A DNA stretch of 64,000 nt from Chthonomonas calidirosea (GTDB lineage: Bacteria > Armatimonadota > Fimbriimonadia > Fimbriimonadales > Fimbriimonadaceae): assembly GCA_945859975.1 (NCBI GenBank), contig CAMAPH010000002.1, forward strand, positions 1 to 64,000. Direction: 5' to 3'. The position numbers were made by a program. Position 1 is the stretch's first letter. Each line of letters starts with the position of its first letter. This document shows positions 6,001 to 12,000 of the stretch, one piece after another.

Positions 6001-9000
6001 TGGCATCTCGGCCTACAACGGCCTGGTTCGCCTACGACGCGAAACCGAGAACGCATTTAGCCAGATCGACGTTCAACTCAAGCGTCGCTACGACGTGATC
6101 CCGAACCTCGTCGAAACGGTCAAGGGATACATGAAGCACGAGCAGGACACGCTTGAGCGAGTCATCTCCGCCCGAAACCGTGCGCTTGGCGCCAACACCG
6201 TTGGCGAAAAGGCAGCCGCCGAAGGCCAGGTCGCTTCGGCTCTGACCGGCCTCTTTGCCCTCTCTGAGGCGTATCCAGAGCTCCGAAGCAACGAGAACAT
6301 GCTCTCGCTTCAGGAAGAACTGAAGAGCACGGAAAACAAGATTTCCTTCGCTCGCCAGTACTACAACAACACGGTCACTTCGTACAACACGAAGATTGAG
6401 ACGTTCCCAAGCAACATCATCGCGAACTCCAGCGGCTTCAAGCCAAAGGACCTCTTCGAGATCGAAGATCCGATCGAACGACAGAACGTCAAAGTTTCGT
6501 TCTAAACGGTCACCACGTTTCGGCGTAGTTTCGTTACACTGAGGGAATGGCATCGTCTGCGGCACAACGGCGTCCGGTGAGTCGGCTCCAGCGGACGATA
6601 CGTTCCCTCTTGGTGATTTCGGGCATCGGAATAACCCTCGCGCTGATCAACACGTTCACCCTGCAATCCGACATCCGCACTGCAGTTGGGCCAGAGTCGG
6701 ACGGTCAGAAGCAGTTCTTTATCGCCGCGGCTGACCGACCCGACGTTGCGGTGTTCTTCAAGAATCTCAAGCCGGAGGAACGGATCTCCGTGGCACGGAA
6801 CATCGCCCGCTACGATGATCCAAAACTGGCGACCTTGATTGCAAAACTGCTCGCCGACTTCGATGTCGAGGCTCGTGCAGAGCTCGGAAAGTCGCTGACG
6901 AAGCTCGCAAAGACCCAGCCTCAAGCGGTCGCCGACCAGCTCAAAGAGCGTGGCAGCTTCCAGCAGCTTGCCATCACGCAGTCCATCCAAACCCTTGGCT
7001 CCAGCGCAATTCCCTTCGTGATCAAAACTCTGGAAGTCGCGGATGCCCGAACAAATGCTGTGAGCTTTCTGGTCTCGCAGGGGACACCTTCCGTGCCGGC
7101 TCTGATGCCGTTGTTGAAGGGCGAGAACAAAGATATCGTCCTAAGTGCAGCCGATGCCCTTGGGAAGCTGAAAGCGCAAGAAGCTTCCCCCCAGCTACAA
7201 GAGCTTTACAAGGAGGCGATTCCCGCCGATCGGGCGGCATTCCTGACCGCGCTCAGCAGCATCGGCGATCCACGTAATGAGTTCATTTTCCGCGAAGTGC
7301 TTTCCAACGCGAAGGAGCCACTTCCCCTTCGATCGCAATCGGCACTGGGACTCGGGCGAATTGGATCTCCGTCCGCAACGAGGCTGCTCTGGCAATACGC
7401 GTACTCCGATGAACGCGAGCTTGCAAACAGTTCTATTAGTGGACTTCAGTTCTCTGGCGACCCTGCGCTTACAGAGAGGACGACGTTCGACTTGGTTACG
7501 GCAAAAGTCGCGTCTGGCATCACGGGCCCTAGCGCCGATCGCGCTCTGTCGCAAGCCCTTAGCAATCCGAGCATTGCGGCCGAAGTTGCGAAGCTCTGCA
7601 CCGAGCGACCGACGCTGGTTCCCGCACTAATGGCTACTTTGCAGAAGCTCGAACTTTCGGAGCAAGGTGATCTGGCGGACGCCGTATTGCGATCGCTTTT
7701 GACGACCGATATCGGTCGCGCAAAGGTTGCTGCTCTCAAGTCAAACGACCCGATTCTTGCCGCCTTAGTTGCTCGGCGGGAAAACGGCGTCTAAGTCGCT
7801 TGTTTAGATCCCGGATCGGGACAGGCGTGGAACGCTTCCCGACAGGATTCGTGCCCGTCTGGCACGATCGATGCTCATGGCATCGACTTCTTTCTCGAAC
7901 GACCGGAACCCAGCAAGGTCGAAGCCATGCTTCTCGGCCAAACCGGAGATCTGCGTGACCTGTTCAAGGCTCACGTCTTTACCGAGTGTAAAGCTGTAGA
8001 GGTCAGGGTTGCCTTCCAGAGAAAGCATCATGGTCTCGCTCATGCAGGCATAGGCGGTTTCGGGTGGGAAACCAAAGTCGAAGTTGAAGTTGACGTTGCC
8101 CGGAACTTTGACGACGCCGCCTTCGATGACCAAAACGTCGGGTCGCTCTTTGGCAACTCGGACCGATACATCGCGGGGTCGCGCAACATCGCACACAATC
8201 GCACCTTGCTTGAAATGTTCTGGCAAGAGAATCGCCGAATCGGATGAAGTTACTGCGATGACCGCATCGGCCTCGCGAATGCGCGAAACCTCAGTAGTCG
8301 CAATCGCGCCGGGAATTTCGCTGGCGACTTGTTCCGTCCGTTCCTGATCTCGTCCGACCAGGAGCACTTGCCCAAACTGCGGAGCGAGGGCGCGTGCGCA
8401 AGTTTTGCCGATTGCACCGGTTGCTCCGACGACGGCGAGCACCGCTTGGCTAGTGTCAATCTCAAGGAGCCGGCAAGCTCGGATCGTGCCTTCGATCGCG
8501 GTTGCGACGGTATAGCTGTTTCCCGTGGTTACCGCAATCTTCGATCGCTCACGGATCGTAATTCCGCCGTCACCAACCACGCTTGTGAACGCACCAAGGC
8601 CAACGAGGTCTGCGCCTAGATCGGCCGCCATGTCGGTGCACTGGACGAGTCGGTCATAGACCAGCTCTAGCGGAAGCTTTTGCGTCATCTGGGCCGGGGT
8701 GAGGGGACAGCCAATGAACCAACCTTCGGCTTCGGCACCGGTCTTCGACTTGATTCCGGAGATCTTGCTGACCAAGATCGGCCCTTTGCGGGCGGTGTAC
8801 ATTTCAATGAGCCAATCCGGCATATGCCGCGCCATCGGATACTGCTTCGCAATGTCCTTAGGATGGAGCGGATGGATGATAAATGCGAATCGGTTCACGT
8901 TAAGAAACTGTTAACTCCTTGAATGTACCACAGGGGCAAGTACACGGTTGGCGGTTAGGCTGCTAGGTTGATGACGCCCGGTTTCCAGCCCATTTCTCTG

Positions 9001-12000
9001 ATCACCGTGCGATAGTCTGCCTGGGTGATTTCAGAGGGATTTTTGCCCAAGTGAGCGACGACCACTCCTTCCATGACGTTCGTTGCGAAGGTTGCATTCC
9101 CGATTAGTGGAGTGGTCGTGACCAGTTGCCTTACCTCCATGGTTTGCAGCAGTTTGACGTCCGCCTCTCGAACGGTCTGCGTGATCACGGTTTTTCCGGC
9201 CAAGTTGTCTGGAGCAAAGCGCCGAATAAAGTGCCAATCTCCCGCAATGATCTCCGCTTCGGCAAAGTACTGACCGAACTTTGGGGTTCGAACCTTCTGC
9301 TTGTCACCGGTTGGATATATCCATTTCAGAGGCAATCGCGTGACGACGGGCAGCAAGATTCGGGCGAGCCGTTCGAGCCGGTCAATCGAGCGAATGGGCA
9401 CGTTCAATCCGAGTCCAAACATCATGTCGCCGAATGTGACATCCGCCCCGATCTCGGTGAGCGCCTGCGTCATTCCAGATCGATCCACGCCTGCGACGAG
9501 GAGCGTTTTTGCCTTGCGGAAGTCCACAACCCCTTCCTGCTGTAGCCACTGAATCGTGTCGTATTCGAGCGTGTTCTTCAAACCTGAACCGTCGACGAGA
9601 GGCGTCTTTTGAACCGCCCGCGTCAGCTTCTCGATTTGCTTGAAGGTGTACCGACGGCCGCCGCTAAACACGTAGAGGTCCGCACCACCGATTCCCAGCG
9701 CATCCACTTGCCCATCCAGCTCCTCGAAACGACGAGCAAAACGCGACAAGTCACCATCCACACCTTCCCGCACCAGTTCGAAGGTGTCGCCAAGCAGGTG
9801 CACGGTTTGGGTCAGATCGCGCTCAGATGTTCCAAGGCTGATCGAAACAATACGCTTGCTCAAAATACAGCGATGGCTTCGATTTCGATGTCGGCACCCT
9901 TGGGTAGTCCGGCTACCGCGTAGGTCGCCCTTGCCGGAGGTACGTCTCCGAAGTAGGTTGCATAGACTTCGTTAACCGCGGCGAAGTGTTCCATTGAAGA
10001 AAGCAAGATGGTGGTTTTCACGATGTTATCCATCGAAAGACCTTCGGCTTCAAGTACCGCTCTCAGATTGTTAAGGCTTTGGGTGGCCTGAAGTTTGATA
10101 TCGCCCGTAATGAGTTCGCCTGCCGGGGTGAGAGGGACCTGTCCGCTCAGGAAAATAAAGTTTCCGCTTGCCTTGATCGCTTGGCTGTATGGGCCGATTG
10201 CGGCCGGAGCGTTTGGAGTCGAAATCGCATCACGCGTCATGCCTGCAGGTTACCTAGCAGAATCTGTCATACTGTGATCCAATGCCCCGGACGCCGAAGC
10301 TCACGGATTTTCGTGCCGTACTCTTCGATGTCGACGGAACGTTGGTGAACAGCATCGACGTCATCGTACTGGGCATTACGGATACGTTTCATCGGTTCCA
10401 ACAGCCTTGCCCAACGCGAGAAGTGATTCTCGGTCAGATTGGGGTTCCGCTCACTCGACAGTTAGCGAACTACGTAGGCGTAACCAATGATCCAGTCGTC
10501 CTTAGCGATATGGCAAAGCATGCCATGGAGATGTTCGAAATTCACGCCCACGCCGAGACGCTTTTTCAAGACGCGATCGAAGCATTGCGCGTCGCTCGAG
10601 CTGCCGGTTTGAAAATCGCTTTGGTCACCAGCAAGTCGAAGACCGAGCTGACTCCGTTTTTGAAAAGATTTGACGCCACTCGCCACGTAGATGCAACCGT
10701 ATCTGCGTCGGACGTACAGAAGCCGAAACCAGATCCTGAAAGTGCCTGGTTAGCTTGCCGATTGCTCGAGGTTAAGCCGAGCGAAGCAATCTTCATCGGC
10801 GACTCCATTTTCGACATCCAATGCGCGAAATCCGCAGGCATGAAATCTGCTGCCGTCGGATACGGTGCCGGGAGAACTGAAGACCTGATGGCCTTCGACC
10901 CCGAACTCTATTTCCCCACCCCCGAATCCTTGTTGAGTTGGGCTCTTACCGCTGAAAACACAACCTCATGCCCCGGAAGAAAGTAACGACCGAACCTGTC
11001 ATCTCCTCTGACCAACCTGTAGACGCCACCCCCGCTAAGAAAGCCCGGGCAAAGTCCAGCGCATCAGAACCGACCGTCGAACCCGTCAAGAAGCCTCGAC
11101 GAACCACTAAGAAAGCGACCGAGCCAGAAGCGGCTGAAGCGCCATCAATTGCCATCGAAGCCGAAACAGCAGATTCCGCTGAAGAGGGCCTTGTTGTCAC
11201 GCTGCGCCCGATCCAGCGTAAGTCGACCAAGCCTGCCGTCACGCCACCCAGTCCTGCTGCCAAGGCTGCCCCGGTTGAAGAAGCTTCTTCCGCGAACGAG
11301 GACGACCTGCTCTTGCCCGTTTTCCGAAGCCGCGCTGCTGCGGAGAAGAAGCCGGCGCGAAATCGCCAGCCCGAACCAACAGAAGAGCCAACACGGCAAA
11401 TCAACCTTGCCGAGCCCGCGATTGCCGTTTCGGCCGAGTTGGAATTTGAACGAACGGACGACGGTCTTGCTGTCGCCTTCCGCACCCGCTCAGCCTCTAA
11501 ACCAACTTCTCGCCGAGAGCCGAAGCCGGTAGCAACTCCGGTGGTCGAGGAACCATTCCAGCCAGCCGCTCCAGTAAAGGTTATAACTCCTTCGGTGGCG
11601 CTTGAATCAACGTCGATTGCCGACGAAGACACCCCGGACGGTGCGCTGACGATCAACTGGCGCACGATCGGAAACGACACGGTCAAGCCAACCCGAGAGG
11701 CACGGGACACCGAGCGCGATGACGACCGACGCGGTCGACGGGGCCAACGCGGATTCCGTGAGCGATCCGAAACGACTGCGGAATCTTCTGAAGTCGTGGT
11801 CGCCGAAGAGCCAGTCGCCCCTGCCGCGGCACCACGAGCCCGCGAAATCGCGATTCCAAGTGATGCGCCGCAGGTCGTCCTTCGAAACGGCTTGCCAACG
11901 CTCGTTCGAGACCACCGCGTCTACCCACCGCTGATGCTTTACGGCCGCGCTCGGGATAGCAAGCGCACCGACATCTTGCTAGAAGAAGTCAAGCTGGCAT

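What a model noticed while it worked through the whole genome (the two positions that open the first line are those of the whole stretch)
7804..9863. Phylum-core split PigE-like module (acyl-thioester reductase + aminotransferase + partner): candidate long-chain alkylam [...]
g00200 matches the thioester-reductase half and g01561 (C18:19040-20296) the aminotransferase half of PigE; g00201 next to g00200 has no family but is predicted to fold like acyl-ACP reductase. The reductase and aminotransferase are near-universal, mostly single-copy core genes of Armatimonadota, and the trio clusters or fuses in other phyla. They probably turn fatty acyl thioesters into long-chain amines as a housekeeping (membrane lipid) task.
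Evidence so far: g00200 hits PigE model 39-355 (E 3e-53) and acyl-ACP reductase (E 4e-28); g01561 hits PigE model 377-732 (E 1e-127). g00200 in 76 of 81 and g01561 in 59 of 61 phylum genomes. g00201 lies beside g00200 in 38 of 80 loci, many of them short contigs and in most loci of call 208. Its model (pLDDT 92) has AAR 6jzq as top Foldseek hit, E 2e-6, TM 0.48. Relatives of g00201 occur in Deinococcus (48-50% identity), Negativicutes, Halanaerobiales and others; L612 holds aminotransferase, START-like cyclase, reductase and partner in a row, L599 holds the partner plus an 875-aa aminotransferase fusion. Deinococcus-Thermus phospholipids carry alkylamines (PMC3035268, passages seen, call 226); two searches l [...]
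(Added by a program. Inside this text positions count along the whole contig: contig position 1 is position 1 of the stretch shown here. "Call 12" and the like, gene names such as g00115 and contig names such as C1 are that model's own, and its searches are not shown. The text may have been shortened before it was handed on; [...] marks where a part breaks off. The agent that wrote the report below was given it as the finding of a first reader that could run no searches.)

Follow-up and report, generated by a model that had tools for sequence, protein, structure and literature searches.

The report
Candidate alkylamine membrane-lipid synthesis genes
Two neighbouring genes, together with two genes elsewhere in the genome, are strong but untested candidates for the long-missing enzymes that build the fatty-amine phospholipids of Thermus and Deinococcus, and they suggest that the phylum Armatimonadota builds its membranes the same way.

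Summary
Confirmed and extended. The window holds an acyl-thioester reductase (7804-8898; AAR/PigE type, catalytic Cys kept) and a family-less partner (8955-9863; AAR fold, Z 14.3; no Cys). Reductase, partner, a class III aminotransferase and a START protein are each mostly single-copy in 96, 100, 98 and 100 of 101 Armatimonadota genomes. New support for a membrane-lipid role: the reductase is fused to the only PlsY found in two families; the four reductase-less genomes of one genus carry unrelated fatty-acyl reductases; 90 of 101 genomes show no CDP-alcohol phosphatidyltransferase, as does Deinococcus radiodurans; of 14 controls only the two alkylamine-lipid makers (and the AAR owner) hold the reductase. 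In a Clostridia-containing phylum the aminotransferase tracks the intact reductase (127/148 against 9/153), while 56 of 57 genomes lacking the transferase carry the partner. Best reading: reductase plus aminotransferase make long-chain amines for N-glyceroyl-alkylamine phospholipids (0.65); the partner acts downstream and may replace PgsA. No lipid data exist here for the phylum, the aminotransferase's best hit is putrescine aminotransferase, and the partner persists without the other two in 80 genomes.

The parts
7804..8898 (-). Acyl-thioester reductase of the AAR / PigE-N-domain type, 364 aa; Cys285 and the GATGAIG nucleotide loop intact
   Evidence: Cys aligns with AAR and PigE; C285 invariant in 25 of 25
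8955..9863 (-). Partner protein, 302 aa, no family (NCBI label 'quinate 5-dehydrogenase'); AAR-like fold, no Cys, invariant R32 G92 D146 G208, near-invariant D50 D91 K96 R128 D209 N262
8899..8954 (-). 56-base spacer between partner and reductase with an AAGGAG ribosome-binding-like motif before the reductase start; one sigma-70-like match here is within chance (2 found, 1.2 expected)
9860..10240 (-). RidA-family gene whose stop overlaps the partner's TTG start by 4 bases; same operon here but seen beside the partner only in 4 close relatives, so probably not part of the module

Best explanation
The genes belong to a housekeeping pathway for N-glyceroyl-alkylamine phospholipids. Step 1 (inferred from homology and intact catalytic residues): the reductase takes a long-chain acyl group from acyl-ACP/CoA onto Cys285 and releases the aldehyde with NAD(P)H. 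Step 2 (inferred; shown in vitro only for fused relatives): the class III aminotransferase on contig C18 turns the aldehyde into the alkylamine; the START protein on contig C57 assists. Step 3 (weakest): the partner acts downstream in head-group assembly, either joining the amine to a glycerate unit or moving the phosphatidyl group from CDP-diacylglycerol onto it, which lets the cell do without PgsA/PssA. A family-4 glycosyltransferase would add the sugar. Prediction: Armatimonadota membranes contain these lipids.
For: All four genes are core and mostly single-copy in the phylum: 96, 100, 98, 100 of 101. Reductase fused behind PlsY with Cys kept in 7 of 7 sampled genomes of two families, one cut by a contig end; the fused PlsY is the only PF02660 match in 5 of 5 tested. 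The 4 reductase-less genomes of one genus keep partner, aminotransferase and START and all carry a LuxC-type reductase (E<=6e-70) found in 0 of 4 other genomes tested, plus a long NAD_binding_4 protein. PF01066 found in only 11 of 101 genomes, not in the own genome, which has CdsA and PlsY but no Psd; among 14 controls only D. radiodurans lacks PF01066. At E<=1e-12 the AAR model rings only in Synechococcus, T. thermophilus and D. radiodurans of 14 controls. Partner named from Thermus, Meiothermus, Oceanithermus, Marinithermus, Deinococcus sp. and Halanaerobiales. Second phylum, 301 genomes: aminotransferase in 127 of 148 genomes with a strong reductase, 9 of the other 153; 56 of 57 genomes without PF01066 carry the partner, against 1 of 73 partner-less genomes lacking it. 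Four-gene operon L172, aminotransferase-reductase fusion after the partner in L113, adjacency in L246-L248. GT4 genes follow the partner or aminotransferase-START in 8 loci of two phyla. TamH makes dodecylamine from acyl-ACP (as stated in bioRxiv 10.1101/2025.08.11.669332); Thermaerobacter and Thermincola fusions transaminate aliphatic aldehydes in vitro (PMC10829540).
Against: No lipid structure for any Armatimonadota was found. The aminotransferase is closer in sequence to E. coli PatA than to PigE and does not group with PigE and the fusions in the tree. D. radiodurans did not ring with the PigE model at 1e-100, and the Thermus START gene is listed for 174 isolates, the Thermaceae count, not phylum-wide. 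The START orthologue TTHA0849 has a cavity of about 18 cubic angstroms (PMC13525633), too small as solved for a long chain. The partner persists in 80 genomes with weak or no reductase, only 4 of which have the aminotransferase. 172 of 228 partner carriers and T. thermophilus keep PF01066. Caldanaerobacter subterraneus has the partner (reductase beside it in L135) but the table of PMC13274423 lists these amines only for Moorella thermoacetica; that table covers iso-diabolic-type compounds only. 21 of 148 strong-reductase genomes gave no aminotransferase at my threshold. Related genomes are not independent, so the tallies overstate significance.
Confidence: 0.65

Rival explanations
1. The reductase and partner do serve membrane lipids but the product is not an alkylamine lipid everywhere: the aldehyde goes to long-chain alcohols, 1,2-diols, ethers or wax esters, and the aminotransferase is one optional branch.
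For: The 120 best longer relatives of the reductase are all partner-reductase fusions, named ones mostly Chloroflexota, whose wax esters and diol-type lipids I recall but did not check; diols occur in Meiothermus lipids (PMC3035268); the partner survives loss of the aminotransferase.
Against: In Armatimonadota the aminotransferase is core; in the second phylum it is lost together with the reductase Cys, and the two are fused or adjacent.
Confidence: 0.2
2. The aminotransferase is a polyamine (PatA-like) enzyme unrelated to the two window genes; co-occurrence reflects shared ancestry.
For: Best hits are putrescine aminotransferases; in the tree the PatA clade sits among START-linked relatives with weak support; not adjacent to the reductase in this phylum.
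Against: E. coli PatA forms a fully supported clade with enzymes lying beside aldehyde-oxidoreductase-like genes (named by eye) that excludes this protein (quick tree). It lies beside the START gene in 23 of 30 best loci of the second phylum and in at least 16 Armatimonadota genomes (coordinates). It scores below the PatA cut-offs.
Confidence: 0.08
3. The partner is a non-catalytic AAR-fold subunit that binds the reductase and channels the acyl chain or aldehyde.
For: No Cys in the own protein and no conserved Cys column; frequent adjacency and fusion; several conserved residues, N262 among them, are changed in Chloroflexota fusions.
Against: It is kept, with about 20 near-invariant polar and Gly residues, in genomes where the reductase has lost its Cys or is not found; 19 of the 56 transferase-less carriers have weak or no reductase; one fusion joins it to a BioF/serine-palmitoyltransferase-like enzyme instead (P0170).
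Confidence: 0.2
4. A dispersed secondary-metabolite pathway (prodiginine, tambjamine or koreenceine type).
For: All characterised reductase-aminotransferase fusions belong to such clusters.
Against: No ACP, PKS or pyrrole genes were seen beside any of the loci examined; core single-copy distribution; placement among dusB, greA, lysS, efp, accB; fusion to PlsY.
Confidence: 0.04

Closest known systems
PigE (prodigiosin MAP pathway) and TamH (tambjamine YP1)
   Same: AAR-type thioester reductase with the catalytic Cys plus a class III aminotransferase; acyl thioester to aldehyde to amine
   Different: Here split into stand-alone core genes on different contigs, outside any biosynthetic cluster, with an extra AAR-fold partner; scores 181 and 427 bits against a cut-off of 850
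Transaminase-AAR fusions of Thermaerobacter and Thermincola (Prout et al. 2024, PMC10829540)
   Same: Probably the fused form of the same module (compare L113, L251); act on aliphatic aldehydes in vitro
   Different: That paper, in the three fifths read, points to alkaloid clusters and does not mention membrane lipids or the partner
Cyanobacterial acyl-ACP reductase (TIGR04058, PDB 6jzq)
   Same: Fold, Cys and nucleotide loop of the reductase; best structural match of the partner
   Different: 98.6 bits against 449.7; aldehyde is inferred to go to an aminotransferase, not to alkane synthesis; partner has no Cys
Terminal amidation domain (CarI TAD, PDB 9e4s)
   Same: Second structural match of the partner (Z 13.1); an AAR-fold domain proposed to form amides
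   Different: TAD has an invariant Cys and ends NRPS modules; the partner has neither
E. coli putrescine aminotransferase PatA
   Same: Closest solved relative of the aminotransferase
   Different: Separate supported clade; different neighbours
deino9.00587 (Karamycheva et al. 2022, PMC9425974)
   Same: Described as 'annotated as quinate 5-dehydrogenase', in 33 of 33 Deinococcus genomes, low variability, uncharacterised; matches the partner's label and range (identity by label, not by sequence)
   Different: No function, fold or pathway proposed in the passages seen

Membership tests
PigE (NF053554) | Single chain with reductase then aminotransferase, score over 850 bits | tested here: not met
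   Separate genes; 181.5 and 427.5 bits
PigE (NF053554) | Lies in a prodigiosin cluster beside pigD | tested here: not met
   Neighbours are RidA, HEAT-repeat, HAD genes; contrast
AAR-like thioester reductases (reductase) | Catalytic Cys at the AAR C294 position and Gly-rich nucleotide loop | tested here: met
   Cys in 113 of 114 rows scoring 330 bits or more, some rows duplicates
AAR-like thioester reductases (reductase) | NAD(P)H-dependent release of a long-chain aldehyde | not testable with these tools
   needs an assay
Cyanobacterial AAR equivalog (TIGR04058) | Score over 449.7 bits | tested here: not met
   98.6 bits; 0 of 101 over cut-off
AAR-like thioester reductases (partner) | AAR fold over the whole chain | tested here: met
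   Z 14.3, 248 residues aligned, rmsd 4.4; no profile-profile similarity to the reductase
AAR-like thioester reductases (partner) | Catalytic Cys | tested here: not met
   No Cys in the protein; only one column with Cys in 20% or more of rows, 23 of 103
Shikimate/quinate 5-dehydrogenase (partner's NCBI label) | Match to PF01488 or related models | tested here: not met
   No such hit among the 25 families shown for 103 members; structural Z 9.4, well below AAR
Putrescine aminotransferase PatA (NF008570, TIGR03372) | Score over cut-off and grouping with E. coli PatA | tested here: not met
   464 of 612 and 403 of 659 bits; outside the PatA clade in a quick tree
N-glyceroyl-alkylamine lipid pathway | Genes present in known producers | tested here: inconclusive
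   Reductase in T. thermophilus and D. radiodurans; partner in Thermaceae and Deinococcus sp.; PigE-model hit at 1e-100 in T. thermophilus, not D. radiodurans; Moorella not tested by name
N-glyceroyl-alkylamine lipid pathway | The lipid is present in Armatimonadota and depends on these genes | not testable with these tools
   No lipid data found
CDP-alcohol phosphatidyltransferase (PF01066) or PLD-type transferase (partner) | Family motif or fold | tested here: not met
   No match; if the partner does this job it is a non-homologous enzyme

The most novel reading that the evidence does not exclude
The partner is a third, unrelated class of phospholipid head-group synthase built on the AAR fold: it replaces PgsA/PssA by making phosphatidyl-glyceroyl-alkylamine (or its phosphatidyl-glycerate or glyceramide precursor), and a whole phylum plus much of a Clostridia-containing phylum build membranes by this PgsA-independent route.
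Probability: 0.3. Interest if true: 0.92.

Novelty: new variant of a known kind. Interest (0 to 1): 0.8.

Why it matters
The alkylamine phosphoglycolipids are the major phospholipids of Thermus and Meiothermus and related to that of D. radiodurans (PMC3035268), and a 2022 paper states that the enzymes forming the third chain and the head group have not been identified (PMC9636437). This gives testable candidates in two genetically tractable organisms, explains how most Armatimonadota may live without a CDP-alcohol phosphatidyltransferase, moves PigE/TamH chemistry from natural products into core membrane synthesis, and offers a function for a family already flagged as conserved and unexplained in Deinococcus. 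It would also give a gene marker for these lipids in uncultured lineages.

Tried and rejected
Single-sequence fold of the partner failed (pLDDT 36); the alignment-based model was used. Sequence searches of PDB with the partner gave nothing, nor did profile-profile comparison with the reductase. No partner match in plasmids or viral contigs (one distant query). Atlas search returned only the same mislabelled family. A complex prediction of reductase with partner was not available, so binding is untested. Bale et al. 2025 was not held, so the producer list could not be compared with gene content; only its title and one table row citing the compound for Moorella were seen. The Thermus Tn-seq cannot separate essential genes by its authors' own account, so I do not use it as evidence of essentiality. 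The careful tree did not finish; the quick tree is reported. PLD-domain proteins of the own genome look like a nuclease/helicase and polyphosphate kinase by eye, so no PLD-type transferase was found. The adjacent HAD and RidA genes were rejected as parts because they are not conserved neighbours. Literature searches for a published link between these genes and alkylamine lipids found none; subscription journals are mostly not covered, and bioRxiv supplements were closed, which bears on TAD cluster 4.
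Full report
Observation. The window comes from a Fimbriimonadaceae-like genome: a named record carries the reductase at 100% and the partner at 98% identity. 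Two genes lie in tandem on the minus strand, partner (8955-9863, 302 aa) then reductase (7804-8898, 364 aa), behind a RidA gene that overlaps the partner's start. [quoted passage not shown] The partner has no family and is labelled 'quinate 5-dehydrogenase' by NCBI. Its model (pLDDT 96) matches AAR best (Z 14.3, 248 residues, rmsd 4.4), the terminal amidation domain second (Z 13.1) and everything else at 10.1 or less. It has no Cys; by motif spacing (my inference, not a residue-level superposition) near-invariant Asn262 takes the Cys position. The aminotransferase is on contig C18 and a START-domain protein on contig C57.

Distribution in the phylum. In 101 genomes at least 90% complete, the own included, the reductase was found in 96, the partner in 100, the aminotransferase in 98 at E<=4.3e-113 with one more partial hit at 56% identity and paralogues at 333 bits or less, and the START protein in 100, nearly always once. 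Reductase and partner are within 1.5 kb in 52 of 96 genomes and within 4 kb in 56. Aminotransferase and START are adjacent in at least 16 genomes (read from coordinates).

Evidence that the task is membrane lipid. First, in all 7 sampled genomes of two families the reductase is fused behind PlsY with its Cys kept; one is cut by a contig end. That PlsY is the only PF02660 match in 5 of 5 genomes tested. Second, four genomes of one genus have no reductase even by profile search yet keep the other three genes; all four hold a LuxC-type acyl reductase, seen in none of four other genomes tested, and a roughly 1,480-residue frame with a NAD_binding_4 domain. Replacement by unrelated fatty-acyl reductases fits a need for fatty aldehyde; the control set is small. 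Third, a CDP-alcohol phosphatidyltransferase (PF01066) was found in only 11 of 101 genomes. The own genome (96% complete) has CdsA and PlsY but no PF01066 and no Psd, and its two PLD-domain proteins do not look like lipid synthases. Of 14 control genomes only D. radiodurans lacks PF01066. Fourth, at E<=1e-12 the AAR model rings only in Synechococcus, T. thermophilus and D. radiodurans, and the partner is named from Thermus, Meiothermus, Oceanithermus, Marinithermus and Deinococcus sp.. In two Thermaceae-like contigs it sits after transketolase and before efp and/or accB-accC. Fifth, GT4 genes follow the partner (4 loci of one genus) or aminotransferase-START (4 loci), and an SCP2 lipid-binding gene plus a permease flank partner or reductase in 4 loci.

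A second phylum. In 301 genomes of the phylum holding a Clostridia record (L009, G101) the partner was found in 228, the reductase profile in 194 at E<=1e-20, and 193 had both. I split them by score. Of 148 with a strong reductase (E<=1e-80) 127 had the aminotransferase; of 46 with weak copies 3; of 35 with partner only 1; of 72 with neither 5 (threshold E about 1e-98, with one ArgD-like hit removed and two weaker full-length hits added by hand). The full-length weak stand-alone copies I could read lack the Cys (6 rows). So aminotransferase and intact reductase are lost together, while the partner stays. Of 57 genomes without PF01066, 56 carry the partner; 1 of 73 partner-less genomes lacks PF01066; 19 of the 56 have weak or no reductase. 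Kin are not independent, so the Fisher values overstate. Among 80 metagenome loci and two genome loci the usual order is an HTH gene, partner, reductase, greA, lysS; L172 holds partner, aminotransferase, START, reductase in a row and L113 the partner before an aminotransferase-reductase fusion. The 120 best longer relatives of the reductase are all partner-reductase fusions, 90 with the Cys motif, the named ones mostly Chloroflexota.

The aminotransferase. Its best hits are putrescine aminotransferases, below cut-off. In a quick tree of 71 rows E. coli PatA groups at full support with five Bacillota enzymes, four of them beside aldehyde-oxidoreductase-like genes (named by eye); PigE, the fusions and a longer Bacillota type form another clade (98); the own enzyme is in neither, and deeper branches are weak. 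It is therefore not shown to be a PigE orthologue, and its tie to the reductase rests on joint loss, operons and fusions.

Mechanism. Shown: sequences, fold match, distributions, fusions. Inferred with good support: acyl thioester to aldehyde (reductase) to amine (aminotransferase). [quoted passage not shown] Inferred with weaker support: the amine ends in N-glyceroyl-alkylamine phospholipids. Speculative: the partner forms the amide or transfers the phosphatidyl group. Its one-way link to PF01066 loss favours a role at the head-group step, but an unseen membrane protein that tracks it could be the actual transferase, and its substrate in the 80 genomes without an amine route is unexplained.

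Against. No Armatimonadota lipid data were found. D. radiodurans gave no PigE-model hit at 1e-100. The START orthologue TTHA0849 (best PDB hit) has a tiny cavity (PMC13525633, passages) and is not phylum-wide in Deinococcota. Most partner carriers and T. thermophilus keep PF01066; the Thermus gene is in the insertion-tolerant class. C. subterraneus has the partner but is not listed with these amines in a table limited to iso-diabolic-type compounds (PMC13274423, passages). Chloroflexota fusions change several conserved partner residues.

What is in print. PMC9636437 (parts 1-2 of 3) says the enzymes for the third chain and head group are unidentified. PMC9425974 (passages; supplements searched without hit, one unreadable) lists a 'quinate 5-dehydrogenase' family as conserved and uncharacterised in 33 of 33 Deinococcus genomes. 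The supplement of PMC13140390 (rows seen; abstract and section 3.2) lists TT_C0761/TTHA1126 (COG5322, beside efp) as single-copy in 341 Deinococcota isolates, and TT_C0553/TTHA0909 'patA' beside an acyl-CoA thioesterase gene; I did not match these tags by sequence, and TTHA1126 may be partner or reductase. The TAD preprint (part 1 of 5 and passages) notes a cluster of discrete AAR-like proteins outside biosynthetic clusters without naming them. PMC3035268, PMC10383236 and PMC9189128 were seen as passages. Searches found no paper tying these genes to alkylamine lipids; Bale et al. 2025 was seen as a title only.

Verdict. A real, phylum-core gene set; known chemistry in a new, primary-metabolism setting, plus one family whose role may be new in kind. 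Best explanation 0.65; interest 0.8.

Noticed in passing
L131:4744-5304 and the same family in 40 of 82 loci: A conserved roughly 185-aa protein with an XRE-type HTH lies directly upstream of the partner in Bacillota; not found in the own genome by BLAST.
   Followed up: partly
P0170 (762 aa): Partner fused behind a BioF/serine-palmitoyltransferase-like PLP enzyme, another possible source of a long-chain amino compound; cluster of 4 members.
   Followed up: partly
L151:11260-12111, L136:5196-6107, L167:3399-4289, L177:11034-11924: Family-less 280-304 aa genes occupy the reductase's place after the partner; L167 and L177 score weakly on the reductase profile, suggesting a decay series.
   Followed up: partly
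L053, L061, L175, L184: SCP2 lipid-binding gene plus amino-acid permease beside the partner or reductase in two phyla.
   Followed up: partly
G008:C21, G024:C22, G037:C8, G050:C93: Open frames of 1,482-1,507 residues with a strong NAD_binding_4 domain in the reductase-less genus; not read further.
   Followed up: no
L254, L255, L259: Radical SAM/SPASM gene upstream of the longer aminotransferase type in three genomes.
   Followed up: no
window:10968-14318: 1,116-aa protein with a long low-complexity N-terminus and only a weak beta-galactosidase (GH42) hit.
   Followed up: no
G000:C48:18694-18789: A second, identical copy of the first 32 codons of the START gene, perhaps an assembly overlap with the start of contig C57.
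   Followed up: no
L268 (Haematobacter plasmid) and other plasmid hits: Aminotransferase-reductase fusions in Proteobacteria outside any evident biosynthetic cluster.
   Followed up: partly
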